NCBI GenBank assembly: GCA_019694155.1
Contig: JAIBCN010000002.1
Coordinates: 7,768 to 71,767 of the forward strand
Length of the DNA: 64,000 bases
Direction: 5' to 3'
Source: Vicinamibacteria bacterium
GTDB taxonomy: Bacteria; Acidobacteriota; Vicinamibacteria; Fen-336; JAGNNV01
Shown: positions 15,633 to 38,865 of the stretch, piece after piece
Layout: the number at the start of each line of letters is the position of its first letter
Numbering within the stretch: position 1 is the stretch's first letter
The notes under the pieces: generated by a model
Seen by the model: the letters and a program-made list of their open reading frames with translations, nothing else
The model's database searches: none
What the model was told of the DNA's origin: nothing
Program-made: the position numbers and the translations under genes

Positions 15633-16419
15633 AGTTCACCTGTGCCTGAGAGACCAGACCATCGATAAGTTGCTTCATCCTTAGACGAGTCTTTGCCTCG
15701 GTCAGGCGGGACTCGATATCCGGCCGCGATTCTGCGAAGGACCGGGTGGCGGGGGCGGTCTTCGCCTCCAGCCGGAGGACATGGTAACCGAAGGAGGTGG
15801 TTACTATGCCTGAGACCTGGCCCGGGGAAAGAGAGAAGGCTGCTTGCTCGATCTCCGGAGGCAGTTCTCCACGGTGAAAGGAGCCAAGCAGGCCGCCGCC
15901 CCGTGCCTGGGGTGACCGGGACCGCGTGCGGGCGAGCAATTCGAAGGAGTTACGGTCTGAATTCAAAATCCGCACGACATCGCGGGCGTCCTGCATCGTC
16001 CCGAGCAGGATCTCCCGGATGGTCACCGATTCCTCCACCCTGGCCACCTCGGGGTGGGCTTCATAGTACGCCCGAGCCTCGCCTTCGGACACCCTCTCCT
16101 GAGAGAGGGCGGAAGCGAGCCACCGCTCCGCCGCCGCGCGACTCTCGCCCGCGTCCGAGACGCCGCTTCGGGCGGCCGCGATGGCGACCACCCGCTCCTC
16201 GACGAACCGCCCGAAAGCCGACGCCCTCATGGCCGGGTCCGAGGTGTCGGTGCCGTTCTTCGCGAGCGGCTCCAGCTCCTTCAGGAACGCGCTGCGTCGT
16301 ATGTCGACGCCCTGGAAGCGCAGCACCACGGGGTCAAGCGGGGCCCGACAGCCGAGCAGGCTCATCGCGAGAAGCCCCGCTCCCGTGCGCACGCATCGCA
16401 TGGTTTCCCGTCTGTTCAC
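15610..16419 (-). CDS. PpiC/PrsA-type peptidyl-prolyl isomerase, probable lipoprotein
   Basis: Lipobox-like SLLGC, GGLLGSF and VTTSFGYHVLRL parvulin motifs; GTG start overlaps the mfd stop. Confidence 0.8.
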   Translation of the reverse strand: MNRRETMRCVRTGAGLLAMSLLGCRAPLDPVVLRFQGVDIRRSAFLKELEPLAKNGTDTSDPAMRASAFGRFVEERVVAIAAARSGVSDAGESRAAAERWLASALSQERVSEGEARAYYEAHPEVARVEESVTIREILLGTMQDARDVVRILNSDRNSFELLARTRSRSPQARGGGLLGSFHRGELPPEIEQAAFSLSPGQVSGIVTTSFGYHVLRLEAKTAPATRSFAESRPDIESRLTEAKTRLRMKQLIDGLVSQAQVNYEAVTAR

Positions 16420-19400
16420 GATTCTTCGATTTTCGCCGAGCGAAGGCGTTCGAGCACCGCTCGGGAGGCATCGAGCGGTGCGCCCTGGGGCAGGGGCACG
16501 GTGAGCGTCTTCCCTTGTGGGCCGAGCTTCGCGCCGGGCCAGGCCGCGATGAGGGTGGCGAGCTTCGCGGGGTCGAGGGGCGGCGCATCGGTGAAGAGCA
16601 GGTCGAGCCGGACCCCAACGCGGTCCACCTTGGCGATGCCGAGGCTCTCCGCAAGGACGCGCAGGCGCGAGTAGGTGATGAGATCGATCGCGTCCTGGGG
16701 CAGGGGGCCGAATCGATCCCGAAGGTCGGCCTCAATCGCCTTGATGTCCTCATCCTTCGCCGCGTCCGCGGCGCGCTTGTAGATCAGGATTCGGTCCCGC
16801 GCCTCCGCGATGTAACCGGCCTTGAGCCTCAGGTCGATCCTCAGGTTGAGCACCGTTCGCTCGGACACGCTCGCTTCGCCGCCCGCCTGCATCTCGCGCA
16901 CCGCGTCCCCGAGCAGCTTCAGGTAGAGATCCAGGCCCACGGCCAGAATGTGGCCGCTTTGCTCTCCGCCCAGGAGGTTACCGGCGCCGCGCATCTCGAG
17001 GTCGAGCGCCGCCAGACGGAAGCCGGACCCGAGATCCGAGAATTCACGAATGGCGGCGAGACGCCGCTGCGCCACCTCGGAAAGAACGCGACCGGGAGGG
17101 ACCATGAGATATGCGAAGGCGGGGCGATCCGACCGGCCGACCCGGCCCCGAAGCTGATAGAGCTGGGCGAGGCCGAATCGGTCGGCCCGGTGAACGATGA
17201 GCGTGTTCGCTCTTGGCACGTCCAGGCCGTTCTCCACGATGGTGGTCGCGACCAGGACATCCGCGCGTCCCTCGACGAAGGCGAGCATGGACTTTTCGAG
17301 CTCGCTGTCCGTCATGCTGCCGTGGCCCACCACAACCCGCGCCTCGGGAACGAGCTCCTTGATCATCGAGGCGAGGGAGTAGATCGACTCGACGCGGTTG
17401 TGGACGACGTAGACCTGACCCTCGCGCTCCAGCTCATGCCGGATGGCGGTGGCGATCAGGTCCTTCGAGAACTTGACCACCATGGTCTGGATGGCCAGGC
17501 GGTCGCGGGGCGGGGTCTCGATGATCGACATGTCGCGCAGGCCCGAAAGACCCATCTGCAGGGTTCTGGGGATGGGCGTCGCGGACAGGGTGAGACTGTC
17601 GATGGATGTCTTCTTCTGCTTGAGCCGCTCCTTCGCGGCCACCCCAAATCGTTGCTCCTCGTCCACGATGACGAGGCCGAGGTCCTTGAACTCCGCGTCC
17701 TTGGAGAGGAGGCGGTGGGTCCCGATGACGATGTCCACGCGGCCTTCGCTCGCACGCTGCAGGATCTCCTTGTTCTCCTTCGTCGAGCGGAGACGAGACA
17801 CCATCTCCGCGGTGACGGGAAAGGGAGCGAACCGCCGCCTGAAGGTCTGGAGATGCTGAAAGGCGAGAACCGTGGTGGGCGCCAGCACTGCGACCTGTTT
17901 GCCGTCTGCCACCGCCCTCATGGCTGCGCGCATCGCCACCTCGGTCTTCCCGTAACCCACATCGCCGCACACCAGCCGGTCCATCGGCGTCGGGGACGAC
18001 ATGTCCGCGAAAACGTCCTCGATGGCCTTCCTCTGGTCCGGCGTCTCCTCGTATTCGAAGGCGTTCTCGAATTCCGACATCCAGGGGGACATGGGAGAGA
18101 AGGCGAAACCATGGCGGGTCTTCCGCTCGGCGTGGACCTTGAGCAGTTCGGCGGCCATGTCGCGCATAGCCCGCTTGACCCGCGACTTGGTCTTGGTCCA
18201 GGCCGTCCCGCCGAGCTTGTCGAGGGAGGGATTGCTGCCCTCGGCCGCGCGATGCTTCTGAATCCGATGGAACGACTCGACGGGAACCCGCAACAGGTCC
18301 CCGCCCTGGTAGCTCACCACCATGAACTCGGCGTCCGAACCGAGGACATGCAGGCTCTCGAGCCCGACGAATCGACCAATGCCGTGATCTTCGTGGACCA
18401 CGTAGTCGCCCGGCTTCAGGTCGCGGAAGTCCGAGAGGAACGAGCGCACCACGTTGCGACGCTTGTGAACGTGGACCTCTTCGGGAAAGACGTCGCCGTC
18501 CGCGAGCAGGCGGAGCCCCGAGTGGGGGAACTCGATGCCCCGGGAGAGATGCCCCGCCCCGATCTCAACGTGCGTGTCTTCGCCGGTGGCGATGCCGCCC
18601 TCGAACAGCGACTCCGCGAGCCGCTGCGCGCGCCCGGGGGTGCCGAGGAGGATGAAGGTCTTTCCCGCTGGCTCCTTGAGGTCCTCGCGAAGGCGCTTGA
18701 GATCGCCGCGATACTGGGCGGCGGGTCGCGAGCCGATGTGGATCGCGGTTTCGGCGGGCGCTATCTCGTGAAGCTCGGTGCGCTCCGGTCGCGTGAGATA
18801 GCTGCGAACGAGGTCGGGGTCCACGAAGGTCTCGAAGGCGCGCGCGGTCCGGGGATCATCGGGGTCGAGATCGGCGTGAAGGGTGGTCTTGACGTGCAGC
18901 GCCCTCTCCATCTCCGCGAGCGCGGGCTCGGGATCGATGACCACGAGCCAGTGCGGAGGCAGGATCTGGGGGATGGCGAGACGCGAGCTGCCCTCGGGCA
19001 CACCGAAGGGGAGCAGGGTCACCTCGTCGATTTCGTGGCGGCGCCTCTGTGTCGAAGGATCGAACTCGCGGAGACTGTCGATGCGATCACCGAAGAACTC
19101 GATGCGCAGCGGCCACAGACGCCCTGGCGGGAAGACATCGACGATCCCGCCCCGGCGCGCGAACGCTCCCGCCTCCACCACCGGGTCCTCCCTCCGGTAG
19201 CCGGCGCCGTCGAGATGGTCGAGCAGCATGTCCACCAGAAGTTCCTCGCCCACGCGGACCGAGAGACGCTTTTGGTTGATCACCTCGGGCGCGGCCACGG
19301 AGTGAACAAGGGCGGGGGCGGAGATCAGCACCGCCCGCACCGCGCCATCCTGCAGGGCCAGCGTTGATTGAGTGCGCTCGTGTTCCTCCGAGGTGGGCCC

Positions 19401-19676
19401 CGTCCCGGCGATCCGGGGCGGCAAGTCCGGAAAGGTCGCGAGTGTTCCTCGAGAGCCGAGCCAGGGGATCAGGGTTTCAGCGTCGCCGGAGAGGTTTTCG
19501 AGGTCCTTCTCGTGAGGCGCCACGAAGACCACGAGTCGTTCGGTGCTCGCGAGCGGAACCAGGAGGCGCGCGAGGCCGAAGAGGCCGGTCACATGGCTGG
19601 TGCGGCCTTCCTCGATCGCGCGCTGCAGCGCGAGGAACCCGGGTTCCCGGTCTAGGAATGAAGCGGGCGACTTCAC
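16416..19676 (-). CDS. mfd: Transcription-repair coupling factor
   Basis: UvrB-like N-terminus (RGGIVDVFP), CarD/TRCF domain, GDVGYGKTEVA, DEEQRFGV and QLRGRVGR motifs; real GTG start at 19676 overlaps the upstream stop. Confidence 0.96.
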   Translation of the reverse strand: MKSPASFLDREPGFLALQRAIEEGRTSHVTGLFGLARLLVPLASTERLVVFVAPHEKDLENLSGDAETLIPWLGSRGTLATFPDLPPRIAGTGPTSEEHERTQSTLALQDGAVRAVLISAPALVHSVAAPEVINQKRLSVRVGEELLVDMLLDHLDGAGYRREDPVVEAGAFARRGGIVDVFPPGRLWPLRIEFFGDRIDSLREFDPSTQRRRHEIDEVTLLPFGVPEGSSRLAIPQILPPHWLVVIDPEPALAEMERALHVKTTLHADLDPDDPRTARAFETFVDPDLVRSYLTRPERTELHEIAPAETAIHIGSRPAAQYRGDLKRLREDLKEPAGKTFILLGTPGRAQRLAESLFEGGIATGEDTHVEIGAGHLSRGIEFPHSGLRLLADGDVFPEEVHVHKRRNVVRSFLSDFRDLKPGDYVVHEDHGIGRFVGLESLHVLGSDAEFMVVSYQGGDLLRVPVESFHRIQKHRAAEGSNPSLDKLGGTAWTKTKSRVKRAMRDMAAELLKVHAERKTRHGFAFSPMSPWMSEFENAFEYEETPDQRKAIEDVFADMSSPTPMDRLVCGDVGYGKTEVAMRAAMRAVADGKQVAVLAPTTVLAFQHLQTFRRRFAPFPVTAEMVSRLRSTKENKEILQRASEGRVDIVIGTHRLLSKDAEFKDLGLVIVDEEQRFGVAAKERLKQKKTSIDSLTLSATPIPRTLQMGLSGLRDMSIIETPPRDRLAIQTMVVKFSKDLIATAIRHELEREGQVYVVHNRVESIYSLASMIKELVPEARVVVGHGSMTDSELEKSMLAFVEGRADVLVATTIVENGLDVPRANTLIVHRADRFGLAQLYQLRGRVGRSDRPAFAYLMVPPGRVLSEVAQRRLAAIREFSDLGSGFRLAALDLEMRGAGNLLGGEQSGHILAVGLDLYLKLLGDAVREMQAGGEASVSERTVLNLRIDLRLKAGYIAEARDRILIYKRAADAAKDEDIKAIEADLRDRFGPLPQDAIDLITYSRLRVLAESLGIAKVDRVGVRLDLLFTDAPPLDPAKLATLIAAWPGAKLGPQGKTLTVPLPQGAPLDASRAVLERLRSAKIEES

Positions 19677-21511
19677 GTCGAAGCGATCGTCCCGCCCTCG
19701 GCTTTCTGGATGAGCGCGGTGGTCGAGCGGTCGGCCACGAGTTCGACCCGGACCACGCGGCCGCCCCAGCTCTCGACTTCCTGCCGGCCCACGATCTTGT
19801 CGAGCGCCCAATCGGCGCCCTTGACCAGCACGTCGGGACGGATCGCGTTGATGACGGCGAGCGGCGTGTCCTCCTCGTAGATCACCACCCGGTCCACGCA
19901 CTCGAGGGCCAGCAGCGCCTCCGCTCTTTCCGCTTCGCCGATCACCGGGCGGGTCTCGCCCTTGATGCGTTTGACCGAAGCATCCGAATTGATGCCGACG
20001 ACGAGGACGTCTCCTTCCGCCCGGGCCTGTTCGAGGAGACTGATGTGTCCGGTGTGGAGGATGTCGAAGCAGCCGTTGGTGAACACCACGCTCCGGCCCA
20101 GGGCCCGGAAGCTGGCGCGGTCGTGGTGGAGGATCTGCAGGGTGTCCGCCTGACGGCGCCGCTCCACCCGCTCCGCCGCGCGCAGTTCGAGTTCGGGTCG
20201 CGCATCGGGCGCCGCGATCTGCAGCGACTCCGAGAAGGCCCAGGTGTGACGCGGCCGGTAGACGCCCACGTCCTTGACCCGGCTGCGAACCCGGAAGGAG
20301 TAGAGCCCGCGGTGATAGTCGTAGGGCGTTCCGTCCCGGCGATGCGCGGCGATGTCGAGGATGTAGCTGCCTTCCACCAGGCGCAGATCCTGGATCTCGA
20401 AGGTGAAACTGAAGGGGCCCGCGGCTCGGGTCGGCTTGAACTCCTCGATGTGGGTGTTCGTCCCGTAGACGGCGGTGCCATCCGCGGTGAAGATCCCGAC
20501 GCCGAAGACGAAGTCCTCCACCGGACTTCGCGCTTCGCCGCTCACCGCCACGCGAAGGGTGTCCCCGGTCACGAAGACGTGAGCCATGCGGTCGGTGTGG
20601 TCGCGGAGGTGGACCTCGTTCAGAACGATCTCCCCGCTTCCCCATCGGCGCTTCTCTTCCGGGGCCTCGCCGCTCACCTTGTCGCTGCTCTCCGCGACCT
20701 CGCGGACCTCCTGCTTGCCCAGGAGCTCGTTCTCCTGACCGGCCACGAAGCTCAAGTAGGCGTCGACCACCCTCTTCGGGTCGCCGGAATCCATGGCTTT
20801 GCCCTTGCGAAGCCAGAGGGCCTCGTCGCACATCTTCTCGACGAGACCCAGGCTGTGAGTCACGATGACGATGGTCTTTCCCCGTCTGCGGAACTCGCCG
20901 ATCTTCTCGAGACACTTGCGGGTGAAGGCTTCGTCGCCGACCGCGAGGACCTCGTCGATGAGGAGGATGTCGGGGTCGACGTGAATGGCGACCGCGAAGC
21001 CCAGGCGCGCGTACATGCCGGAGGAATAGGTTTTCACCGGCGCGTCGATGAAGTCCTTCATCTCCGCGAACTCGACGATCTCATCGAATCGGCGGTTGAC
21101 CTCGGCGCGGGTGAGGCCCAGCATGATGCCGTTAATAGCCACGTTTTCGCGGCCGCTGATCTCGGGATGGAACCCGGCGCCCAGTTCGATCAGCGCGGAG
21201 ACCCGGCCGGACACGTCGAGAGAGCCGCTCGAGGGCTTGGTGATGCCGGAGAGCAGCTTGAGGGTGGTCGATTTCCCGGAGCCGTTTTCGCCGAGGATCC
21301 CGTAGGTGCAGCCGCGCGGGATGTCGAAGGAGACGTGGTCGAGGGCGGTGAAGAGCTCGCTCGGCTTGAGGTCCCGAATGAGCGAGCCGGAGACGATGGC
21401 GCTCTTCAGGGTCGTGAACTGGTTTTTGTGGAGGTACTTCCGGTAGACCTTGGTGAGGCCGCGAGCGGAGATGGCGACTCCTTGTCCGGTGTGGGCGGGC
21501 AGGCCGTTCAT
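19673..21511 (-). CDS. wzt: Wzt-type polysaccharide ABC transporter ATPase with Wzt-C domain, fused to an RfaE/HldE-type heptose-1-phosphate adenylyltransferase domain
   Basis: GENGSGKST Walker A, YSSGMYARLGF signature, LIDEVLAVGD Walker B and Wzt_C (VFGVGIFTADG); continues without a stop into VVFTNGCFDILHTGH, GINSDASVKRIKG and LVKGADW; 612 aa from the ATG at 21511. Confidence 0.9.
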   Translation of the reverse strand: MNGLPAHTGQGVAISARGLTKVYRKYLHKNQFTTLKSAIVSGSLIRDLKPSELFTALDHVSFDIPRGCTYGILGENGSGKSTTLKLLSGITKPSSGSLDVSGRVSALIELGAGFHPEISGRENVAINGIMLGLTRAEVNRRFDEIVEFAEMKDFIDAPVKTYSSGMYARLGFAVAIHVDPDILLIDEVLAVGDEAFTRKCLEKIGEFRRRGKTIVIVTHSLGLVEKMCDEALWLRKGKAMDSGDPKRVVDAYLSFVAGQENELLGKQEVREVAESSDKVSGEAPEEKRRWGSGEIVLNEVHLRDHTDRMAHVFVTGDTLRVAVSGEARSPVEDFVFGVGIFTADGTAVYGTNTHIEEFKPTRAAGPFSFTFEIQDLRLVEGSYILDIAAHRRDGTPYDYHRGLYSFRVRSRVKDVGVYRPRHTWAFSESLQIAAPDARPELELRAAERVERRRQADTLQILHHDRASFRALGRSVVFTNGCFDILHTGHISLLEQARAEGDVLVVGINSDASVKRIKGETRPVIGEAERAEALLALECVDRVVIYEEDTPLAVINAIRPDVLVKGADWALDKIVGRQEVESWGGRVVRVELVADRSTTALIQKAEGGTIAST

Positions 21512-22293
21512 AGCTCTTCCGCCAGCGCGTCGCGAAGACGGTCGAAGAGAAAACAGCCGAACGCGAAGACCAGGATGGCCACGAGCGCCGAGGCCCCGAG
21601 GCCGGCCCAGTGGTCGAAGCGTCCCTCGAAGAGCATTTGCTGGTAGCTCACCACGATGTGGCTCATCGGATTGAGGCGAAGCAGGGTCTTGAAGGGGCCG
21701 TCGATGGAACCGTACATGTACAGGATGGGAGACCCGAAGAACCACAGCCGGAAGAGGTGCCCGATGATGTTGCTCAGGTCGCGAAAGTGAACGGTGAGCG
21801 CCGAAAGGGCGAGGGCGAGGCCGAGGGCCATCACGAACTGCACGAGCAGCGGAAGGGGAAAGAGAAGCGCGGCGGGGGAGAGCCGCTGATTCCAGACGAC
21901 GAAGAACAGGAGGATGGGAACGGACAGCAGGAAATTGAAGAGGTTCGTGATGACCGCGACCGTGGGCAGGATCTCGGGCGGGAACAGGACCTTCTTGAGC
22001 AGTCCCCCGCTGCTCACCAGCACCGAGGAGGCTTCGAGGACGGCGGCCTCGAAGAAGCTCCAGGGGAGGATGCCGCAGGCGAAGAAGAGCAGGTAGGGCT
22101 CCATCTCCTTCGCCCTCTGGCCGGGCAGCATGTACCCGAAGACCACGCCGTAGGTGAGGAGGTTCAACAGGGGATTGATGAAACTCCACACGAACCCGAG
22201 CACGCTCCCCCGGTAGCGCGCCTTGAGCTCACGCGAGACAAGGCTCTCGATGAGGGCCCTGTAGCGGAAGAGCGTCTTTATCTGGGCGAGGAT
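21508..22293 (-). CDS. wzm: Wzm ABC-2 type polysaccharide exporter permease (probable non-canonical start)
   Basis: LFRYRALIESLVSRELKARYRGSVLGFVWSFINP and LNPMSHIVVSYQ motifs. Homology extends 30 codons upstream of the first GTG (22203); candidate starts are ATC 22293 or CTG 22311. Confidence 0.88.
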   Translation of the reverse strand: MLAQIKTLFRYRALIESLVSRELKARYRGSVLGFVWSFINPLLNLLTYGVVFGYMLPGQRAKEMEPYLLFFACGILPWSFFEAAVLEASSVLVSSGGLLKKVLFPPEILPTVAVITNLFNFLLSVPILLFFVVWNQRLSPAALLFPLPLLVQFVMALGLALALSALTVHFRDLSNIIGHLFRLWFFGSPILYMYGSIDGPFKTLLRLNPMSHIVVSYQQMLFEGRFDHWAGLGASALVAILVFAFGCFLFDRLRDALAEEL

Positions 22294-22307
22294 CTGCGGC
22301 CTCGCGC

Positions 22308-22736
22308 TCAGGCGCCCTTGGTGTGGGAGGCCGCAGAGAGGCGGGCGATCGCCTTCACGTAGTCAGCCTGCGCTTCCTTGAAGCCCTCTTCGTCCTTCAC
22401 CATCTTCATGCGCTCGGCCGCGCGGGCCTTCGCCTTTTCGGCCCGGGCCACGTCGATTTCCTCGGCGCGCTCGCCGCCCTCGGCCAGGATGTGCACGCGG
22501 TCGGGCAGGACCTCGCAGAACCCGAACATGCAGGCGATGTGCCCGACCTCCGAACCCTGGCGATAAATGATCTCGCCGGCGCCGAGCGTGGCCAACATGG
22601 GGATGTGGCCGGGGAGAACGCCGAACGAGCCTTCCGAACCCGGAGCCTGGACGGAGTCCACCTCGTCGCGCATGAGCAGCCCGTCCGGGGTGACCACTTC
22701 GAGAGTGAGCTTGGTTGGGAGGTGGGAGTCGGCCAT
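22308..22736 (-). CDS. atpC: ATP synthase F1 epsilon subunit
   Basis: LEVVTPD and GSFGVLPGHIPML motifs; follows atpD. Confidence 0.96.
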   Translation of the reverse strand: MADSHLPTKLTLEVVTPDGLLMRDEVDSVQAPGSEGSFGVLPGHIPMLATLGAGEIIYRQGSEVGHIACMFGFCEVLPDRVHILAEGGERAEEIDVARAEKAKARAAERMKMVKDEEGFKEAQADYVKAIARLSAASHTKGA

Positions 22737-28766: not shown

Positions 28767-29642
28767 CTACCCTCTGACGATCCAGGCGTAGATGCGGTTC
28801 AGTTCGGTCTCGCTCTCGAAGGCGATCCGGATCTCTCCCTTGCCTCGCTTGCGGGTGATCTCCACGCGCGCCCCGAGCTTGGCCCGTAACTTCTCCTCCG
28901 CGGCCCGGGTGTTGGCGTCGACCTTTCTGATCTTGAGCGGCCTTGGATTCCTCGTCGCCTTCACTCGAGCCTCGACCTGGCGCACGGAAAGACCCTGCTT
29001 GATGGCGAGGGCCGCGAGATCCCGGAGCACTGTCTGGTCTTCGACGGCGAGCAGGGCCCGCGCGTGCCCGGCCGAGAGCGTGCCTCTTTGAAGCTCTTCT
29101 CGGACATCGGCGGGCAGACGCAACAGGCGGATGGTGTTGGCGACCGTGGCGCGGTCCTTTCCGACCTTCGAGGCGAGAGCTTCCTGTGTGAGACCCAGTT
29201 CATCCTGCAGTCGGCGGAGCGCCTGTGCCTCTTCGATCGGCGTGAGCTCTTCGCGTTGGATGTTCTCGACCAGAGCGAACTCCAGGACGCGATCATCGGC
29301 AACGGTCCGAACGACGGCTGGGATGGTTGGCAGTCCCAGCTTCTGAGCGGCTCGGAAACGGCGCTCTCCCGCAATGATCTGGAATCTCCCGTTGGCCACG
29401 GGGCGAACCAGGATCGGCTGGACCACGCCGCTCTCCTGGATCGATCGAGCCAGCTGTTCCAGCGCCTCGGGCCGAATGGTCGTTCGGGGCTGAGCAGGGT
29501 TGGCGTCGATGAGAGATATTGGAACCACGGACTCGGTACCTGCGCCACGGGGCGTGGCGGCCGTCTCGGTCGGTGCCGGGGTGGGGGCTTGTGGAATCAG
29601 GGCGGAGAGCCCTCGTCCAAGAGCCATTCGCTTAACGCTCAT
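28767..29642 (-). CDS. parB: Chromosome partitioning protein ParB/Spo0J
   Basis: LGRGLSALI N-terminal peptide, IIAGERRFRAA, LVENIQREEL and HTH; ATG at 29642 overlaps the parA stop. Confidence 0.97.
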   Translation of the reverse strand: MSVKRMALGRGLSALIPQAPTPAPTETAATPRGAGTESVVPISLIDANPAQPRTTIRPEALEQLARSIQESGVVQPILVRPVANGRFQIIAGERRFRAAQKLGLPTIPAVVRTVADDRVLEFALVENIQREELTPIEEAQALRRLQDELGLTQEALASKVGKDRATVANTIRLLRLPADVREELQRGTLSAGHARALLAVEDQTVLRDLAALAIKQGLSVRQVEARVKATRNPRPLKIRKVDANTRAAEEKLRAKLGARVEITRKRGKGEIRIAFESETELNRIYAWIVRG

Positions 29643-30406
29643 GAGCGCACCTCTCTCTCTGCTCGGTTCAAGACTTCGCGCGCCAGGCTCAGGTAGCACT
29701 CACTGGCTCGAGACTTGATGTCGTAGAGGAGTACGGGCTTTCCGAAGCTTGGCGCCTCGGCCAGACGGATGCTCCTTGGAATCGTCGTCCTGAACACCTG
29801 ATCGCCGAAGTGGGCGCGAACATCCGCCGAGACCTGCTGGGAGAGATTCGTCCGTTCATCGGCCATCGTCAGAAGCACCCCCTCGAGGGCCACTTTCGGA
29901 TTGAGAGCGGCCCGAATCCGATCGAGTGTCCCCAGAAAGGCCCCCAGGCCCTCAAGCGCGAAGTATTCGCACTGAATCGGCACAAGGACGGAGTCCGCCG
30001 CGGTCAGTGCGTTCACGGCCAGCAGGCCAAGGCTCGGTGGAGTGTCGAGGAGAATGAAGTCGTAGTCGCCCCGAAGAGCATCAACGGAACCGCGAAGGCG
30101 GAATTCGCGCCCATCGCCCGATGCCAGCTCCACTTCGAGCCCGGCCAGGTCCGGATCGGACTGAATCACCTGGAGATATTCCAGTGCCGTCCGTGCTGGG
30201 GGTGGGAGGCTGGCGCCGGAGAAGAGGGCTTCGTAAAAGCCCGAGACCTTCTCCAGGCCGAAGCCGGAAGTCAGATTGCCTTGGGGGTCGAGGTCAACCG
30301 CCAGCACGCGCTTCTCGGCGACTGCGAGGCTTGCGGCCAGGTTGATGGCGGTGGTGGTCTTGCCGACACCCCCTTTTTGGTTTGCTACTGCGATGACGCG
30401 GGCCAT
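29639..30406 (-). CDS. parA: Chromosome partitioning ATPase ParA/Soj
   Basis: NQKGGVGKTTT, DLDPQGN, LDTPPSLG and RLAEAPSFG motifs. Confidence 0.98.
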   Translation of the reverse strand: MARVIAVANQKGGVGKTTTAINLAASLAVAEKRVLAVDLDPQGNLTSGFGLEKVSGFYEALFSGASLPPPARTALEYLQVIQSDPDLAGLEVELASGDGREFRLRGSVDALRGDYDFILLDTPPSLGLLAVNALTAADSVLVPIQCEYFALEGLGAFLGTLDRIRAALNPKVALEGVLLTMADERTNLSQQVSADVRAHFGDQVFRTTIPRSIRLAEAPSFGKPVLLYDIKSRASECYLSLAREVLNRAEREVRS

Positions 30407-30437
30407 TGTTTCTCAGAATAGCATTCGGGTGTCGCCC

Positions 30438-30453
30438 CGTTTCACGTGAAACA
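30438..30453. promoter_or_regulatory. parS centromere site
   Basis: CGTTTCACGTGAAACA, a 15/16 match to the TGTTTCACGTGAAACA palindrome; overlaps the rsmG stop, 31 nt upstream of parA. Confidence 0.92.
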
Positions 30454-30990
30454 TCGACGCTGGACGGTCGAGCCCGAAGGCAGTTTGATGGCTTCTGTTC
30501 CCGACAACTCCGGGCCTCCAAAGACCAGCAGGGTTCCGCCGGGGGCGATCAGGGACCGCAGCGCCTCCGGGTCAAGTCCGACCGCGCGCATCGTCACCGT
30601 CGCGGCCTTCGGACCCTTGTACGCGTCGCTTCGTTCGCGGAGCACCGTGACGTTCGCGGCATTCATCTGCCGTGCGGCATCTCGCAGGAAGGCCCAGCGC
30701 TTGGCCCGGGGCTCGAGCAGCGTGAACTCCAGGTCCGGGCGGAGGGCCGCGAGGATCAGGCCGGGGGAACCGTTCCCCGAACCCACGTCGATTACCGGAT
30801 CCGTCAGCAGGTTTTCCGCTCCCAGAGTCGGCTGTATGAGTGTCTCGAAGGCCTGCTTCGCGTCCTGGGCCCCGGTGAGGTTGATCCTGGGAGACCAATG
30901 CATGAGGCAGTCCAGGTACCTCACCAGCCGGGATCGTGCCTCAGCACTTTCTATCGCCTGAAGGCCCCCGAGCACGTCTTGTTGGGACAA
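30442..30990 (-). CDS. rsmG: 16S rRNA m7G527 methyltransferase RsmG/GidB (short form)
   Basis: WSPRINLTG, IDVGSGNGSPG and LLEPRAKRWAFL motifs; TTG at 30990 just after the yidC stop. Confidence 0.85.
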   Translation of the reverse strand: MSQQDVLGGLQAIESAEARSRLVRYLDCLMHWSPRINLTGAQDAKQAFETLIQPTLGAENLLTDPVIDVGSGNGSPGLILAALRPDLEFTLLEPRAKRWAFLRDAARQMNAANVTVLRERSDAYKGPKAATVTMRAVGLDPEALRSLIAPGGTLLVFGGPELSGTEAIKLPSGSTVQRRCFT

Positions 30991-30991
30991 C

Positions 30992-32635
30992 CTAGGGGGT
31001 GGCCTTGGCTTTAGGGAAGAGGTGCGGGGCGAAGTACATGGCAAGCGCCTGCTGGGCCATCGCCACGAGGTTGGAGACGAACCAGTAGAGGTTCAGGCCC
31101 GCGGGGGCCCAGGCGAACATCCCCGAGAAGATAATGGGCATGAGCATCATCATCCTCTGCTGCGCGGGGTCCACGGCTGGGGCCGGCATCAGCCGCTGCA
31201 TGGCGATCATGGACAGTCCCGAAAGAAGGGGGGTGATGAAGAGCGGATCCTTGAGGCTCAAGTCGGGGATCCAGAAGAAGGGAGCGCCCTTGAGGTCAAC
31301 CGATATGTCGAGCATACGGTAGAACGCGAACAGAAAGGGCATGGTGAGCAGGGTCGGGAGGCAACCGGCCGCTGTCTGCCGAACCATGTCGATTCCGTTC
31401 TTCTCGTACACCTCTGCGATCTCCTGCTGCATCAATTGCCGCTTGGGATCGGTCAGGGAGAGTCTCTTGTATCGCTCCTGGACCGCGCGAATCTGTGGCC
31501 CTACTTTCGCCATCTTGGCGGACGAGAGGATCGCGTAGTGCCGAAGGGGGGCGAGGGCAATTCCGATCCCGATGGTGAGAAGGATGATCGCCACGCCGTA
31601 GTTGCCGACGCGGGCATTCACGGCCCGAAGCGCCCTCGTCAGGGGCACCACGATCGGGCCCAGCCAGCTGCCAACCGGCACGATCTTCTCGACACCCATG
31701 CCCAGGGCCTGGAGCCGGTCGTAGTCCTTGGCCCCCACGGTCAGTGCGATCGGAAGGGGCACGAGGAGTTGGACATGCGACTCTTTGCCTTCGACGATGG
31801 CGCTCGCCTGGGCCTCGATCGTGGCTCCGTTCTCTCGAGTCATGATGGCAGCGAAGTACTTGTTCTCCACTCCCACGAGCCTTGCGCGCATGTTCCGGGG
31901 CGCGGCCAGACCGCTTGGCGGCACCCGAACCTCGGCGCCTGCCTCGTCAATCTCGACAACCTCCGGGGGAAGATAGCCGCGCAGACTGCGCTCGTCTTCC
32001 GACGGCTGACCGAACCCGGGCCCCCAATAGACCTGGGCGGGGACGACCACGCCTTTCTCGCGGACCCTCGCATCGATTCGAAAGGCGCGGCCGCCCTTGA
32101 TCGCCTCGATGGTCTTCGTGACTTCCAGGGTGCCGTCCGAGAAGTCGAAGCGCGTCCCCTTCTCTCCTCCAACGGTCGTTTCGGCCGAGCGGAACTGGGC
32201 CTCTCTGATCCGCGCGTCGAGGTCGGGGCGTCCCGTGACCAGATCCAGGGGACCCGGGACCGGGTTTCCACCCGGATGGGCCTCCACCGGTTTTCCCCGC
32301 TGGTCCTTGTAGTCAAGCAGCTTCCAGGAAAGGAGCCGGGCGCCTCGAGAGCTGAATGCGATCTCGGTGTCCTTGAAGACGAGTTCCACCCGATGCTCTT
32401 CTCCCATCACGATGGGCGCGGTCGGCGCTTCTGGCGTCGGGGTCGCGGCCGCCATCGCGGGGCTCGCCGAAGGCGTCGTCGCGGAAACGCTGGCCGAAGC
32501 CCTCGGGGATCCCGCAGGGGTGCTCTGTGCGGGCGCTTCCGCTAGTTGCGGGTAGCGGGAGTTGGTCCACATCCGGAAGCCCAGCAACACAGCGAACGAC
32601 AACGCGAAGGCCAGAATCAAACGTCTTTCTTCCAT
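30992..32635 (-). CDS. yidC: Membrane protein insertase YidC
   Basis: N-terminal TM, periplasmic domain, NYGVAIILLT, GCLPTLLTMPF and PAGLNLYWFVSN motifs. Confidence 0.96.
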   Translation of the reverse strand: MEERRLILAFALSFAVLLGFRMWTNSRYPQLAEAPAQSTPAGSPRASASVSATTPSASPAMAAATPTPEAPTAPIVMGEEHRVELVFKDTEIAFSSRGARLLSWKLLDYKDQRGKPVEAHPGGNPVPGPLDLVTGRPDLDARIREAQFRSAETTVGGEKGTRFDFSDGTLEVTKTIEAIKGGRAFRIDARVREKGVVVPAQVYWGPGFGQPSEDERSLRGYLPPEVVEIDEAGAEVRVPPSGLAAPRNMRARLVGVENKYFAAIMTRENGATIEAQASAIVEGKESHVQLLVPLPIALTVGAKDYDRLQALGMGVEKIVPVGSWLGPIVVPLTRALRAVNARVGNYGVAIILLTIGIGIALAPLRHYAILSSAKMAKVGPQIRAVQERYKRLSLTDPKRQLMQQEIAEVYEKNGIDMVRQTAAGCLPTLLTMPFLFAFYRMLDISVDLKGAPFFWIPDLSLKDPLFITPLLSGLSMIAMQRLMPAPAVDPAQQRMMMLMPIIFSGMFAWAPAGLNLYWFVSNLVAMAQQALAMYFAPHLFPKAKATP

Positions 32636-32676
32636 TTGTTCTTCTTTCTCGCTTCCGAACGTGCTCTAGTGAAAAT

Positions 32677-33459: not shown

Positions 33460-33488
33460 ATGTTATCGGGTATTCCATCAGCCGTCAA
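33460..33488 (-). promoter_or_regulatory. sigma70-type promoter for the rpmH operon
   Basis: TTGACG-N17-TAACAT on the minus strand, 36 nt upstream of the rpmH start. Confidence 0.7.
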
Positions 33489-33643
33489 AATCGGGCATTT
33501 TTCGGGGGTGGTCCAGGGGGGGCGGCGTGTTATGGTTGACCCTCTTCGCAGGGCGATTTCCGCCCCCTAACCGAGCCCGATTTCAGGGCTCTCTGGTTGA
33601 TCCGGTAACCCTTCTTTCTGACGATGCGCCTGGCTTCTATTCG

Positions 33644-34933
33644 ATGACCGTCTGGGATCGTGTTCTGGATCTTGTGGAGAAGGAGGGACGCGTCAGCTCC
33701 CACTCCTTCGTCACGTGGTTCCGACCCACCGCCTTCCGTTCGTTCGACGGGTCGGTGCTCTCCATCGGCGTCCCCAGCGCGCCTTTTCGCGATTGGTTCC
33801 TGAAGAACTACTCGAGCCTCGTTTCCGAGATGCTGACGAGTCTGGGCCACCCCGGTGTTCGGCTTCAGTGCGACATCGACAGCTTCGGCAGCGTCGAATC
33901 GCTGCCCGTCATCGAAGCTTCCTCACTGAACCCAAAGTACACCTTCGAGACCTTCGTGGTGGGCGCGTCAAATCAGATGGCTCATGCGGCGGCGAAGGCT
34001 GTCGCCGAGGTTCCGTCGAAGTCCTACAACCCTTTGTTCATCTACGGCGGTGTCGGTCTCGGAAAGACCCACCTTCTGCAGGCGATCGGACACTATCTCC
34101 TCAAGCGAAACCCAAAGCTCGCTCTCACCTACGTGTCGAGCGAACACTTCGTCAATGAGGTGGTCTCCGCCATCCGGTACGAGAGGATTCTCCCCTTCCG
34201 CCAGCGCTACCGGGCGATCGACGTCCTCATCATCGACGACATCCAGTTTCTCTCCAACAAGGAGCGGTCCCAGGAAGAGTTCTTCCATCTCTTCAACACC
34301 CTCTACGAGGCCGGGAAGCAGGTGGTGATCTCCGCGGATGTTCCTCCCAAGATGCTGACGGGCGTTCACGAACGCATGCAGAGCCGTTTTTCTTCAGGCA
34401 TGTCCGCCGATGTCGGCCCGCCGGATATCGAGACCCGGGTGGTGATCCTCCAGAGGCTCGCGGCTGCAGAGGACATTCTCCTACCCGACAACGTCGGGCT
34501 CTTCGTTGCCTCGAAGGTCCGCTCAAACATCCGCGAACTGGAGGGTGCGTTCAATCGTATCGTGGCGCATGCCAGCCTGCGCGGTGTCGACATCGACATC
34601 GATGTCGCCCAGGCCGCGATGAAGGACCTGATGGATGCGCCCGAGAAACGCCTGTCCATCGAAACCGTCCAGAAGTTCGTGGCCGACCACTACAAGGTCA
34701 AGATCTCAGACCTCAAGGCTCGTAACAACTCGCGGAGCGTGACGATTCCGAGACAGGTCGCCATGTACCTTGCAAAGCACCTCACTTCCTCATCCCTCCC
34801 CGAGATCGGCCGCGGTTTCGGCGGCAAGCATCATTCCACCGTGATTCACTCGATCAGGAAGGTCGAGATGGACAGGAAGGCCGACAGCGATTTCGACAGG
34901 CTGCTCAACAGTCTTATCGCCTCGCTCAAATAG
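33644..34933 (+). CDS. dnaA: Chromosomal replication initiator DnaA
   Basis: LNPKYTFETFVVG, YGGVGLGKTHL, IDDIQF and SLPEIGRGFGGKHHSTVIHS motifs; ATG 33644 preferred over the upstream GTG at 33527. Confidence 0.98.
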   Translation: MTVWDRVLDLVEKEGRVSSHSFVTWFRPTAFRSFDGSVLSIGVPSAPFRDWFLKNYSSLVSEMLTSLGHPGVRLQCDIDSFGSVESLPVIEASSLNPKYTFETFVVGASNQMAHAAAKAVAEVPSKSYNPLFIYGGVGLGKTHLLQAIGHYLLKRNPKLALTYVSSEHFVNEVVSAIRYERILPFRQRYRAIDVLIIDDIQFLSNKERSQEEFFHLFNTLYEAGKQVVISADVPPKMLTGVHERMQSRFSSGMSADVGPPDIETRVVILQRLAAAEDILLPDNVGLFVASKVRSNIRELEGAFNRIVAHASLRGVDIDIDVAQAAMKDLMDAPEKRLSIETVQKFVADHYKVKISDLKARNNSRSVTIPRQVAMYLAKHLTSSSLPEIGRGFGGKHHSTVIHSIRKVEMDRKADSDFDRLLNSLIASLK

Positions 34934-35204
34934 CCTTATGTTGGGGTCCTCCGCTTTTCAACAAGGAACGACCTGTCGGGTTCCTTCGGATCTCTCGAAG
35001 GGGGCCGCTCCGCCAACACTCTCTGACGGAGATTCACAGAAGTTTCAACATCGTTTAGAATATCGTAACGGGTTGAAAATAAAAGACATCACTCAGATAT
35101 TCACCGCTAGTGAAAACTCCTCTGAATTGATAACAATCTCTTCTGTTTCTCAAGTAGAAGAAGAAAGACACGTTTCCTTCAAGCAGGTTTCTGGAAAGTA
35201 GGCC
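34934..35204. other. Probable oriC (dnaA-dnaN intergenic region)
   Basis: 271 bp non-coding; 35041-35160 is 35% GC by hand count in a GC-rich window; repeated DnaA-box-like 9-mers; TAGAAGAAG trio-like run; parS about 4.5 kb away. Confidence 0.75.
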
Positions 35205-36317
35205 ATGGAAATAACTGTCCGCCGTGAAGACCTTGTGAGAGATCTTCAAGTGATTCAGGGAATCGTCGATCGCCGGGGAGCGATCGCCATCCTTTCCAAC
35301 GCGCTTCTGGTCGCCTCGAATGATTCACTGTCCCTGTCCGCCACCGATCTCGATGTCTCGGTGAAGGCGGTCTGCCCGGCCCGTGTCAAGAAGGGAGGCG
35401 CGACCACGCTTCCCGCGAGGAAACTCCACGACATAGTCAAGGCGCTTCCTTCGGGGTCCGACATTCTCCTGCGCGACGACGAAGAGGGCTTCGTCTCCGT
35501 GCAGAGCGAAAGGACCAACTACAAAGTTGCCACCCTTCCCAAGGACGACTTTCCGACCCTGCCCGAAAGCAAAGGCGCCCAGGAGATCGCACTGCCCGCC
35601 GCGGTGATGAGCCGGCTGATCGGCAAGACGAGCTTCGCCATCACCGTGGAGGATGCGCGCTACTACCTGGGCGGCGCGCTGCTCATCGTCCACGGCGACA
35701 CCGTCACCATGGTGACCACCGACGGCCACCGGCTCTGCTTCGCCAGGGAGAAGGTCGAGGGCGCGAAGTTCAAGGAGGAAAGGGTCCTCATCCCCCGAAA
35801 GGCCATCAACGAACTGAAGCAGGTGACCGAGGGCGAGGAGACGATCTTCTTCTCGCGGACGGAAAATCACCTGATCTTCAGGACGCCGCGGCGAACGCTG
35901 ACAAGCAAGCTGGTGGAAGGGCAGTTCCCCGCTCACGAGAAGGTGATCGCTGCAAAGGGTCCCAAGGTAGGCCAGACCAAACGCACCGAACTCCTCGATG
36001 CGCTTCGCCGGGTGAGCCTCCTTTCGACCGAACGTTCCCGCGCGATCCGGCTGACCATGAAGCCCGGTGAGATCGAACTTCACGCTTCCTCGCCAGACCA
36101 GGGCGAGGCGGTTGAGACCTTCGCCGCCGAGTACTCCGGCGAGCAGGTCGACATTGGTTTCAATGCGCAGTACCTCATTGACTTCCTGTCTGTCCTTTCC
36201 GATGCCGAGGTCACGATCGAGCTGAAGGACAGCGACGCCCAGGGCATCTTCTATCCAACGTCCCAGAAGGACGGCGACTCGATGCACCGCTATGTCCTCA
36301 TGCCGATGAGGCTCTAG
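35205..36317 (+). CDS. dnaN: DNA polymerase III beta sliding clamp
   Basis: ATDLDVSV, TTDGHRL, GQFPAHEKVI, IGFNAQYLIDFL and C-terminal YVLMPMRL motifs. Confidence 0.98.
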   Translation: MEITVRREDLVRDLQVIQGIVDRRGAIAILSNALLVASNDSLSLSATDLDVSVKAVCPARVKKGGATTLPARKLHDIVKALPSGSDILLRDDEEGFVSVQSERTNYKVATLPKDDFPTLPESKGAQEIALPAAVMSRLIGKTSFAITVEDARYYLGGALLIVHGDTVTMVTTDGHRLCFAREKVEGAKFKEERVLIPRKAINELKQVTEGEETIFFSRTENHLIFRTPRRTLTSKLVEGQFPAHEKVIAAKGPKVGQTKRTELLDALRRVSLLSTERSRAIRLTMKPGEIELHASSPDQGEAVETFAAEYSGEQVDIGFNAQYLIDFLSVLSDAEVTIELKDSDAQGIFYPTSQKDGDSMHRYVLMPMRL

Positions 36318-36405
36318 GCACGAAAAGGAAAGCAACGGCCTTCGATCGCGGCGCACCGGCGCGCGAAGAGACGCCAAGGAGGGTGTGGCCGCCCTGCCCC
36401 TTTGA

Positions 36406-38865
<2,460 letters not shown>

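What the first reader, a model, noticed from the sequence alone, without database searches (positions are those of the whole stretch)
19673..21511. Wzt exporter ATPase fused to an ADP-heptose-type nucleotidyltransferase
One 612-aa frame runs ABC ATPase, then Wzt C-terminal carbohydrate-binding domain, a short linker (SESLQIAAPDARPELELRAAERVERRRQ), and a complete RfaE2/HldE-C-like domain (FTNGCFDILHTGH, NSDASV, VKGADW; about 19673-20130). There is no stop at the junction, and both ends are coupled by 4-nt overlaps to wzm and mfd. In characterised systems such as E. coli O9a, Wzt-C reads the glycan terminus, while ADP-heptose synthesis (HldE, or RfaE1/RfaE2) is a separate cytoplasmic step. A fusion would place nucleotide-sugar synthesis on the exporter and could channel or gate export of a heptose-containing or heptose-capped glycan (inference). 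This is the best candidate for an undescribed system in the window.
Basis: partly seen in the sequence, partly recalled or inferred. Interest (0 to 1): 0.8.

Follow-up and report, generated by a model that had tools for sequence, protein, structure and literature searches.

The report
Glycan exporter ATPase fused to heptose-activating enzyme
A soil acidobacterium (class Vicinamibacteria) really does encode one protein that joins the motor subunit of a surface-polysaccharide exporter to the enzyme that makes ADP-heptose, but most relatives keep these as two adjacent genes, so the fusion is a recurrent, derived form of a conserved gene pair and not a new machine.

Summary
Window 19673-21511 (minus strand) is one uninterrupted 612-aa ORF with an ABC ATPase domain, a Wzt carbohydrate-binding domain (CBD) and an HldC/RfaE-II domain. 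The last domain scores above NCBIfam's curated cut-off and is 50% identical, without gaps, to E. coli HldE domain II. The ORF overlaps wzm (ATGA) and mfd (GTGA).

The fusion is not an assembly artefact. More than 110 protein clusters from independent metagenomes, down to 53% identity, carry all three domains.

The wider picture changes the interpretation. Of 80 species-level genomes with this CBD subfamily, all labelled Vicinamibacteria or Acidobacteriota apart from a few submitter labels (Acidimicrobiia, Solibacteraceae, 'uncultured bacterium'), 13 are fused. Another 64 have separate wzt and hldC genes, usually overlapping or a few bases apart, and 10 of these differ from a fusion by a single in-frame stop. 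Parsimony infers a split ancestor and about 13 switches.

The conserved unit is therefore an atpC-wzm-wzt-hldC-mfd module near oriC. Covalent tethering is optional.

No glycosyltransferase, heptose kinase or other heptose-pathway gene was found nearby, and no paper on this architecture was found. The idea of a heptose-capped or channelled glycan remains untested.

Verdict: a new domain-architecture variant of known parts, of moderate interest.

The parts
19673..21511 (-). wzt::hldC, one 612-aa ORF (ATG 21511-21509, TGA 19675-19673)
   Evidence: Continuous translation. Three Pfam domains. Full-length homologues at 53-92% identity.
20732..21478 (-). ABC nucleotide-binding domain of Wzt (residues about 12-260). 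Walker A GENGSGKST, signature SSGM, Walker B LLIDEVLAVGDE.
   Evidence: PF00005 at residues 57-188. TagH/Wzt NCBIfam models cover residues 12-260. PDB A. aeolicus Wzt 8dku/7k2t, E about 1e-72. Foldseek top hits are 8dku and 7k2t.
20654..20731 (-). Variable, low-confidence linker between NBD and CBD (residues 261-286)
   Evidence: pLDDT below 50 for residues 261-287. Length and sequence vary across the family.
20255..20653 (-). Wzt C-terminal carbohydrate-binding domain (residues 287-419), with invariant YGTNT and PYDYHR motifs
   Evidence: PF14524 1.6e-26. The family profile hits the A. aeolicus CBD 8dky/6o14 (E 4e-13), then R. terrigena 5hno and E. coli O9a 2r5o. pLDDT is about 90-97.
20114..20254 (-). 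Junction segment (residues 420-466): last CBD strands, a disordered linker (about 439-450), then the N-terminal helices of the HldC fold
   Evidence: pLDDT below 50 at residues 439-450 and at 155-163 of the two-domain model. This segment is the most variable in length and sequence across the family. In split relatives the wzt stop and hldC start fall here.
19697..20113 (-). HldC / RfaE domain II-like nucleotidyltransferase (residues 467-605). Motifs TNGCFDILHTGH, NSD, KG, EEDTP, VKGADW, DRSTT.
   Evidence: TIGR02199 197-200 bits against cut-off 181.5. B. pseudomallei HldC 5x9q, E 1e-38. 50% identity without gaps over 140 aa to E. coli HldE 333-472. Foldseek 5xf2, target-normalised TM-score 0.85-0.89, rmsd 2.1-2.9 A.
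21508..22311 (-). wzm, ABC-2 permease partner. The 5' end is uncertain because no canonical start codon precedes the conserved N-terminus.
   Evidence: PF01061 7e-18. The conserved N-terminal peptide lacks ATG/GTG/TTG in the window and in L007-L014.
16416..19676 (-). mfd (transcription-repair coupling factor), GTG start overlapping the wzt::hldC stop
   Evidence: ORF and GTGA overlap. The syntenic gene carries Mfd Pfam domains in L001 and L006.
22308..22736 (-). atpC (ATP synthase epsilon), last gene of atpHAGDC immediately upstream of wzm
   Evidence: ORF. Syntenic ATP-synt_DE genes in L001, L002, L005 and L006. tblastn finds atpC upstream of wzm in most loci.

Best explanation
This is the fused form of a conserved three-gene module, wzm-wzt-hldC. 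In Vicinamibacteria (Acidobacteriota) the module sits between the ATP synthase F1 genes (atpC) and mfd, in the origin-proximal housekeeping region.

Shown: Wzm plus the N-terminal two thirds of this protein are homologous to the CBD-dependent class of O-polysaccharide ABC exporters, with A. aeolicus WzmWzt the closest solved example. The C-terminal third is a canonical, motif-intact HldC.

Inferred from family knowledge: as in characterised CBD-dependent systems, a Wzm2Wzt2 complex would export a lipid-linked polysaccharide whose non-reducing end carries a cap read by the CBD. [quoted passage not shown]

Shown: the ancestral and still commonest state is two genes, with the hldC start overlapping or lying a few bases after the wzt stop. 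In the window's lineage, and in about a dozen other switches, the stop in the variable linker was lost or regained. When the stop is lost, two HldC domains hang from the cytoplasmic face of the transporter on a disordered tether of about 25-45 residues.

Inferred: the fusion adds no new chemistry. It fixes 1:1 co-expression and places ADP-heptose synthesis at the membrane where envelope glycans are assembled. It is tolerated because the Wzt C-terminus and the HldC N-terminus are both free. The tight, class-wide pairing indicates that the exporter and ADP-heptose supply serve the same envelope (LPS) pathway. Which glycan is exported, and whether it contains heptose, is not shown.
For: - Domain identities.
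- Catalytic motifs of all three domains are invariant in 40 fused members at 55-92% identity. Both linkers vary in length and sequence and are predicted disordered. pTM is only 0.39 for the full-length model and 0.51 for CBD+HldC, so no fixed docking is predicted.
- Synteny atpC-wzm-wzt(-)hldC-mfd holds at 57% identity and in nearly all 80 GTDB loci.
- State counts among L007-L086: 13 fused, 64 split, 2 cut by a contig end, 1 without hldC.
- In split loci the hldC start lies within a few tens of bases of the wzt stop in most cases. A 4-nt overlap is available in 13 loci. In 10 loci the genes are in the same frame, separated by one stop.
- An NJ tree with Fitch parsimony gives a split root state and about 13 changes over 197 sequences.
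- Only one 50%-identity cluster in 1.84 billion representatives matches the query over its full length.
- lpxC, glmU and glmS are in the window, so the organism makes lipid A.
- No promoter or credible terminator hit lies between atpC and mfd.
Against: - No biochemical or genetic data exist for any member.
- The rest of the ADP-heptose pathway (GmhA, HldA kinase, GmhB) and any heptosyltransferase were not found in the window or in 86 loci. Whole genomes could not be searched.
- Repeated independent fixation, and long persistence of the fusion in the uniformly fused 68-leaf clade, could mean the tether gives a selective benefit beyond co-expression.
- The Phe that is predicted in B. pseudomallei HldC to stack on adenine (FEHDRSTT motif, PMC7993394) is Leu or Val in this family. 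Nucleotide specificity is therefore not certain.
- The tree is a crude NJ tree, so the number of switches is approximate.
Confidence: 0.6

Rival explanations
1. Coupled synthesis and export. The exported polymer contains heptose, or is terminated by a heptose cap that the CBD reads. The HldC partner, tethered or docked, supplies ADP-heptose locally, so that chain completion and export are channelled or gated at the transporter.
For: - The wzt-hldC adjacency is conserved across the whole class, with recurrent fusion. This is classic Rosetta-stone evidence for physical or functional interaction.
- hldC is linked to the exporter and not to other heptose genes.
- The putative cap-pocket motifs of the CBD (PYDYHR, YGTNT) are invariant across the family, which suggests one conserved ligand and not serotype variation.
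- There is precedent for sugar caps, such as the beta-Kdo cap read by a CBD (PMC9445017 introduction).
- Another Wzt carries a C-terminal sulfotransferase (P0265), so enzymes related to end modification may be recruited to Wzt.
Against: - No heptosyltransferase or any other glycosyltransferase lies at the locus in the window or its relatives.
- In the unfused sister lineage the extra genes are a SAM methyltransferase and a GT-C-like protein, which points to a methyl-type cap as in A. aeolicus and E. coli O8/O9a.
- Most genomes are unfused and one lacks hldC at the locus.
- AlphaFold gives no confident CBD-HldC packing.
- HldC makes a soluble nucleotide sugar, and a separate transferase would still be needed.
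Confidence: 0.2
2. The C-terminal domain is not a heptose-1-P adenylyltransferase. It would activate a different phosphate ester, such as a polyol phosphate or another sugar-1-P, possibly with CTP. The module would then be a TagGH/TagD-like system for a teichoic-acid-like or otherwise non-LPS polymer.
For: - Wzt's NBD also scores strongly against TagH models and TagH/TarH structures.
- The domain belongs to the same Pfam family as TagD.
- The adenine-stacking Phe of B. pseudomallei HldC is replaced by Leu or Val (PMC7993394).
- No other heptose-pathway gene was seen nearby.
Against: - TIGR02199, an equivalog-level model, scores above its curated cut-off (200 bits against 181.5). TagD model TIGR01518 scores 42 bits against a cut-off of 165.
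- Identity to E. coli HldE domain II is 50% without gaps, and about 46-47% to B. pseudomallei HldC with rmsd about 2 A.
- The predicted heptose-1-P-binding motifs TNG, NSD, KG and ExTP are all present.
Confidence: 0.1
3. Artefact or decay: a sequencing or assembly error, or a recent pseudogenising read-through, joined two genes in this window only.
For: Related genomes differ from a fusion by a single in-frame stop, so one base error could create an apparent fusion.
Against: - The same fusion occurs in more than 110 clusters from four independent data sources.
- All 9 closest species-level genomes carry it.
- Motifs are intact, and codon position 3 GC is high as in neighbouring genes.
Confidence: 0.02

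Closest known systems
Aquifex aeolicus WzmWzt O-antigen ABC transporter (PDB 7K2T, 8DKU; CBD 6O14/8DKY)
   Same: Same NBD plus C-terminal jelly-roll CBD on one polypeptide, with an adjacent ABC-2 permease. Best sequence match (E about 1e-72, residues 53-400) and best fold match. The CBD profile matches the A. aeolicus CBD best.
   Different: A. aeolicus Wzt ends after the CBD, whereas this protein continues into a 150-aa enzyme. The Trp that lids the methyl pocket in A. aeolicus (most likely Trp362, judged by eye) aligns with an invariant Tyr here (PYDYHR). The ligand is unknown. The gene sits in a housekeeping operon context and not in an O-antigen cluster.
E. coli O9a/O8 Wzm-Wzt with the WbdD terminator
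   Same: CBD-dependent export logic: a capped chain is recognised by Wzt-C. The unfused sister locus L003 has a SAM methyltransferase between wzm and wzt.
   Different: The match to the O9a CBD is very weak (2r5o, E 0.049). No WbdD-like kinase/methyltransferase or mannosyltransferase genes are in the window.
E. coli HldE (bifunctional) and Burkholderia pseudomallei HldC (PDB 5X9Q/5XF2)
   Same: The C-terminal domain is 50% identical to HldE residues 333-472 and is the best PDB match to BpHldC. It has the HxGH, NSD, KG, ExTP and RSTT motifs.
   Different: The fusion partner is an ABC transporter ATPase with CBD and not the heptose-7-P kinase. No kinase homologue is nearby. KGG is KGA here, and the FEHDRSTT Phe is Leu or Val.
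TagGH/TarGH teichoic-acid exporter plus TagD cytidylyltransferase
   Same: A Wzm/Wzt-type ABC exporter genetically associated with a small nucleotidyltransferase of the same superfamily. The NBD scores highly against TagH models.
   Different: The domain fails the TagD model (42 bits against 165). The host has lipid A genes (lpxC). The Wzt_C CBD is typical of O-polysaccharide exporters and not of TagH.

Membership tests
Wzt, CBD-containing O-polysaccharide ABC exporter ATPase | ABC nucleotide-binding domain with Walker A, signature and Walker B motifs, of the Wzt/TagH subfamily | tested here: met
   PF00005 1.4e-21. TagH and galactan-Wzt NCBIfam models at 1e-69 to 6e-54, below their equivalog cut-offs as expected for a distant lineage. 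8dku/7k2t E about 1e-72. Motifs GENGSGKST, SSGM and LLIDEVLAVGDE are invariant.
Wzt, CBD-containing O-polysaccharide ABC exporter ATPase | C-terminal Wzt_C jelly-roll carbohydrate-binding domain | tested here: met
   PF14524 93 bits against cut-off 30.4. Matches CBD structures 8dky/6o14, 5hno and 2r5o. Confident all-beta model.
Wzt, CBD-containing O-polysaccharide ABC exporter ATPase | Adjacent ABC-2 permease (Wzm) | tested here: met
   PF01061 in the ORF ending at 21508, with an ATGA overlap.
Wzt, CBD-containing O-polysaccharide ABC exporter ATPase | CBD binds a non-reducing-end cap, and export depends on it | not testable with these tools
   Only the invariance of PYDYHR/YGTNT and an aromatic residue (Tyr) at the position of the A. 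aeolicus pocket Trp could be seen.
Wzt, CBD-containing O-polysaccharide ABC exporter ATPase | Located with the glycosyltransferases and terminator of an O-polysaccharide cluster | tested here: not met
   The window's neighbours are atpHAGDC, mfd and surA-like genes. No glycosyltransferase was found among the main ORFs scanned across the 64 kb. Some relatives have a methyltransferase or a GT-C-like gene inserted.
HldC / RfaE domain II (D-beta-D-heptose-1-phosphate adenylyltransferase) | Scores above the curated cut-off of equivalog-domain model TIGR02199 | tested here: met
   197.0 bits (full protein) and 200.6 bits (domain alone) against cut-off 181.5.
HldC / RfaE domain II (D-beta-D-heptose-1-phosphate adenylyltransferase) | [quoted passage not shown] | tested here: met
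   TNGCFDILHTGH, NSD, KG and EEDTP are present and invariant in the family. KGG is KGA.
HldC / RfaE domain II (D-beta-D-heptose-1-phosphate adenylyltransferase) | Phe of the FEHDRSTT motif, predicted to stack on the ATP adenine (PMC7993394) | tested here: not met
   The aligned residue is Leu in the window (ELVADRSTT) and Leu or Val in the family. E. coli HldE has Phe. The role of this residue rests on docking, not on experiment.
HldC / RfaE domain II (D-beta-D-heptose-1-phosphate adenylyltransferase) | Genome also encodes GmhA, the heptose-7-P kinase, GmhB and a heptosyltransferase | tested here: inconclusive
   None was found in the window or in 86 loci of 4-22 kb. Whole genomes could not be searched with the remaining quota.
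HldC / RfaE domain II (D-beta-D-heptose-1-phosphate adenylyltransferase) | Catalyses ATP + heptose-1-P to ADP-heptose + PPi | not testable with these tools
   Needs an enzyme assay.
HldE (bifunctional kinase/adenylyltransferase) | N-terminal PfkB-type heptose-7-P kinase domain on the same polypeptide | tested here: not met
   No Pfam PfkB hit. tblastn with E. coli HldE residues 1-320 finds nothing in the window or loci.
TagD glycerol-3-phosphate cytidylyltransferase | Scores above the cut-off of TIGR01518 | tested here: not met
   42.3 bits against cut-off 165.4.

The most novel reading that the evidence does not exclude
The class-wide wzm-wzt-hldC module, apparently co-transcribed with the ATP synthase genes, encodes a conserved 'housekeeping' envelope glycan system. 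In it, ADP-heptose synthesis is physically coupled to a CBD-dependent exporter: HldC docks on the Wzt CBD dimer (covalently in fused lineages), and the exported polymer is heptose-based or heptose-capped. Donor supply, capping and export would then form one membrane-associated assembly. No such arrangement has been described for any Wzm/Wzt system.
Probability: 0.15. Interest if true: 0.7.

Novelty: new variant of a known kind. Interest (0 to 1): 0.42.

Why it matters
Wzm/Wzt exporters are the model for ABC-transporter-dependent O-antigen and glycan export. Known Wzt proteins end at the CBD. A lineage in which a nucleotide-sugar synthase is repeatedly welded to that CBD, and is otherwise always the next gene, points to an unstudied functional link between ADP-heptose supply and polymer export. 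It occurs in one of the most abundant and least characterised soil bacterial classes.

Practical consequences:
- Current automatic annotation names the 612-aa protein only as an adenylyltransferase, which hides a transporter subunit.
- The natural fused and split pairs offer a ready-made experiment on whether tethering matters.
- The invariant CBD pocket suggests a class-wide conserved surface glycan that could serve as a marker or a phage receptor.

If the pairing merely reflects co-regulation of LPS genes, the finding is a tidy example of fusion/fission toggling through a single stop codon.

Tried and rejected
1. Exact-sequence look-up of the window protein in public assemblies found nothing on record. 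Context therefore came from relatives.
2. Five full-text literature searches (Wzt/CBD/ADP-heptose; Vicinamibacteria/LPS/heptose; HldC/RfaE/ABC transporter/fusion; HldC structure; Acidobacteria/heptosyltransferase) found no paper on this architecture or on vicinamibacterial heptose.
3. The first homologue list suggested the fusion is nearly universal. I rejected this as ranking bias, because fused proteins outscore split ones. An unbiased scan with the CBD alone showed that most genomes are split.
4. I looked for a predicted rigid CBD-HldC interface with two AlphaFold runs. The domains are confident, but the linker is disordered and pTM is low.
5. I looked for informative genes in loci with insertions between wzt and hldC or between atpC and wzm. 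The content was heterogeneous, by eye: TA-like or mobile genes, an MBOAT-like gene, an FkbM-like and other methyltransferases, and a PP2C-like gene. There was no consistent pathway gene.
6. tblastn with the E. coli HldE kinase domain against the window and all loci gave no hit.
7. The promoter/terminator scan found nothing credible between atpC and mfd.
8. The listing of cluster members added only the organism label Vicinamibacteria.
9. I considered TagD-like, FAD-synthetase-like and PPAT-like identities for the C-terminal domain. All score far below their cut-offs.
Full report
1. THE OBSERVATION

On the minus strand, window 21511 to 19673 is one open reading frame of 612 codons ending in TGA.

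Pfam places ABC_tran at residues 57-188, Wzt_C at 287-419 and CTP_transf_like at 477-572. [quoted passage not shown] Its curated cut-off is 181.5. The TagD model scores 42 bits against a cut-off of 165.

The wzm stop and wzt start overlap as ATGA. The wzt::hldC stop overlaps a GTG that opens the mfd frame, as GTGA.

2. DOMAIN IDENTITIES

The closest solved structure for residues 53-400 is full-length Aquifex aeolicus Wzt (8DKU/7K2T, E about 1e-72). A profile of the family's CBD hits the A. aeolicus CBD best (E 4e-13). It then hits the Raoultella terrigena CBD and, weakly, the E. coli O9a CBD.

The C-terminal 140 residues are the best PDB match to Burkholderia pseudomallei HldC (5X9Q, E 1e-38). 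They are 50% identical, without a single gap, to residues 333-472 of E. coli HldE.

An AlphaFold model built on 40 family members gives confident CBD and HldC domains. Foldseek returns A. aeolicus Wzt first and BpHldC for the last domain (target-normalised TM-score 0.85-0.89, rmsd 2.1-2.9 A).

[quoted passage not shown] All are present and invariant across fused members, with KGA in place of KGG. The one departure is the Phe of the FEHDRSTT motif, predicted by docking to stack on adenine, which is Leu or Val here.

3. THE FUSION IS REAL

The top full-length hits of a 5.8-billion-protein search come from JGI, ENA, NCBI and Logan assemblies at 53-92% identity. They all carry the same three Pfam domains in proteins of about 590-640 residues.

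Both inter-domain linkers vary freely in length and sequence, while the domains are conserved. That pattern is expected of a functional multidomain protein and not of a read-through accident. [quoted passage not shown] This identifies the lineage and shows the architecture is already deposited, though named after only one of its three domains.

4. THE FUSION IS NOT THE RULE

The first list is biased, because a fused protein outscores a split one. I therefore scanned 185,579 species-representative genomes with an alignment of the CBD alone. At least 585 genomes carry this CBD subfamily. The best 80 are MAGs almost all labelled Vicinamibacteria, Vicinamibacterales or Acidobacteriota; a few carry other submitter labels (Acidimicrobiia, Solibacteraceae, 'uncultured bacterium').

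I classified these 80 loci by tblastn with the three domains:
- 13 are fused. These are the nine closest to the window, L007-L015, plus L034, L042, L066 and L086.
- 64 have separate wzt and hldC genes.
- 2 are cut by a contig end.
- 1 (L071) has mfd directly after wzt, with no hldC.

Gene calls from the source databases agree. L006 has a 467-aa Wzt and a 153-aa HldC overlapping by 4 nt. L005 has the two genes in the same frame, separated by a single TGA and 66 nt.

Across the split loci, the hldC start lies within a few tens of bases of the wzt stop in most cases. A 4-nt overlap is available in 13 loci. Ten GTDB loci are one in-frame stop away from a fusion. About ten carry 0.6-3.5 kb of inserted genes.

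I built a neighbour-joining tree of the NBD+CBD part from 197 sequences and applied Fitch parsimony. It infers a split ancestor and about 13 state changes, 4 of them among the GTDB loci alone. The window's clade is a uniformly fused block of 68 leaves. Its sister group (L003, P0090, P0091) is split. The tree is crude, so the number of changes is approximate.

An exhaustive HMMER search of 1.84 billion 50%-identity representatives found only one cluster (P0127, 608 aa) that matches the query end to end. The fusion is therefore confined to this one family.

5. GENOMIC CONTEXT

The window is the origin-proximal housekeeping region. It holds dnaA, dnaN, gyrB, gyrA, parAB, gidB, yidC, atpHAGDC, then wzm-wzt::hldC, then mfd, SurA-like isomerases, RNase E/G, rodA, PBP2 and mreBC. 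Further away are glmS, glmU and lpxC.

The order atpC-wzm-wzt-hldC-mfd is kept at 57% identity (L001) and in nearly all 80 loci. No promoter-like site and no credible terminator lies between atpC and mfd. The gene junctions overlap.

No glycosyltransferase, no heptosyltransferase, no SIS-type GmhA (the only SIS domains belong to GlmS) and no PfkB kinase was found among the window ORFs scanned. A tblastn with the E. coli HldE kinase domain finds nothing in the window or in any of the 86 loci. The presence of lpxC shows that the organism makes lipid A.

In the unfused sister lineage (L003) a 556-aa SAM-dependent methyltransferase sits between wzm and wzt. A 646-aa protein with weak GT87 (GT-C) and PA14 matches sits between wzt and hldC. 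The methyltransferase is the kind of enzyme that caps chains in E. coli O8/O9a and A. aeolicus (PMC9445017).

6. WHAT IT MOST LIKELY IS AND DOES

Shown:
- A Wzm/Wzt exporter of the CBD-dependent class.
- A motif-intact HldC.
- A class-wide, translationally coupled wzt-hldC pair.
- Repeated toggling between split and fused states within the variable linker.

Inferred from established knowledge of the families:
- Wzm2Wzt2 exports a lipid-linked, end-capped polysaccharide.
- HldC makes ADP-heptose.
- In fused lineages two HldC domains hang from the CBD dimer on a flexible tether. pTM is 0.39 for the full-length model and 0.51 for the CBD+HldC model, and the linker pLDDT is below 50.

Known CBD dimers exchange their C-terminal strands and swing as rigid bodies during the ATP cycle (PMC9445017). 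A long disordered linker is what one would expect if the appended enzyme must not interfere with that motion.

My reading is that the fusion fixes stoichiometric co-expression and membrane co-localisation of ADP-heptose synthesis with envelope-glycan assembly, and is otherwise near neutral. Confidence is about 0.6. The informative fact is the conserved pairing, not the covalent link.

7. RIVAL EXPLANATIONS

- Coupled synthesis and export of a heptose-containing or heptose-capped polymer (about 0.2). Recurrent fusion and the invariant CBD pocket motifs favour this. The lack of any transferase at the locus, the methyltransferase in the sister lineage, the predominance of split genes and the absence of predicted docking all weigh against it.
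- A different substrate for the HldC-like domain, in a TagGH/TagD-like system (about 0.1). This is disfavoured by the model scores and by 50% identity to HldE.
- Artefact (about 0.02). This is excluded for practical purposes by the many independent fused relatives.

8. COMPARISON WITH KNOWN SYSTEMS AND NOVELTY

Each part is a member of a known family. The membership tests are listed separately. The points not met are:
- The usual O-antigen cluster context.
- The HldE kinase domain.
- The adenine-stacking Phe.

Three features are new relative to characterised systems:
- An enzyme domain appended to Wzt's CBD.
- hldC genetically tied to an exporter and not to heptose-pathway genes.
- The module embedded in an ATP-synthase/mfd housekeeping operon across a whole class.

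No paper describing this was found. One other Wzt with a C-terminal enzyme, a sulfotransferase, turned up in passing (P0265). I rate this a new variant of a known kind, of moderate interest.

Noticed in passing
window 22203-22311 (minus); also L007-L014: wzm has no ATG/GTG/TTG in front of its conserved N-terminus (SARPQILAQIKTLFRYRALIESLVSRELKARYRGS). The first canonical start (GTG 22203) would remove the conserved RELKARYRG motif. The same holds in eight close relatives. Candidate starts are a CTG at 22311 that overlaps the atpC stop (CTGA), or a conserved ATC/ATA at 22293. Either way, wzm appears translationally chained to atpC.
   Followed up: partly
P0265 (678 aa): Another Wzt-type protein with an enzyme after the CBD: ABC_tran + Wzt_C + Sulfotransfer_1. 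Appending a modifying or donor-making enzyme to Wzt's C-terminus may be a wider theme.
   Followed up: no
L003:1385-3052 and L003:4447-6384: In the unfused sister lineage of the window's clade, a 556-aa SAM methyltransferase lies between wzm and wzt. It is a possible WbdD-like chain-capping enzyme. A 646-aa protein with weak GT87/GT-C and PA14 matches lies between wzt and hldC.
   Followed up: partly
L005:6688-6757; L019, L024, L030, L044, L047, L048, L058, L081, L083, L084: wzt and hldC are in the same reading frame, separated by a single stop codon. One point mutation therefore converts split to fused or back.
   Followed up: yes
L071:8417-8613: One vicinamibacterial genome has mfd directly after wzt, with no hldC within 8 kb downstream. 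The pairing is therefore not absolute.
   Followed up: no
L046:8429-12010, L061:8429-9890, L056:8429-10965, L064:8429-9285: Inserted genes between wzt and hldC are heterogeneous. By eye they include small toxin-antitoxin-like or mobile genes (L046, L061), an MBOAT-like membrane acyltransferase (L056) and an FkbM-like methyltransferase (L064). Only the L003 insert was scanned against Pfam.
   Followed up: no
P0131, P0139, P0203 and many other proteins of about 780-920 aa: Numerous Wzt relatives carry two ABC_tran domains, and some carry two Wzt_C domains, on one polypeptide (tandem-duplicated Wzt).
   Followed up: no
window 33461-41418 and 28770-32665: The window spans the chromosomal origin region: dnaA, dnaN, gyrB and gyrA on the plus strand, and yidC, gidB, parA and parB on the minus strand. 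lpxC, glmU and glmS lie at 44-49 kb.
   Followed up: partly
window 19697-19740 (residues about 590-605): The Phe of the HldC FEHDRSTT motif, predicted to stack on the ATP adenine in B. pseudomallei HldC and present in E. coli HldE, is Leu or Val throughout this family. This is a possible hint of altered nucleotide preference.
   Followed up: partly
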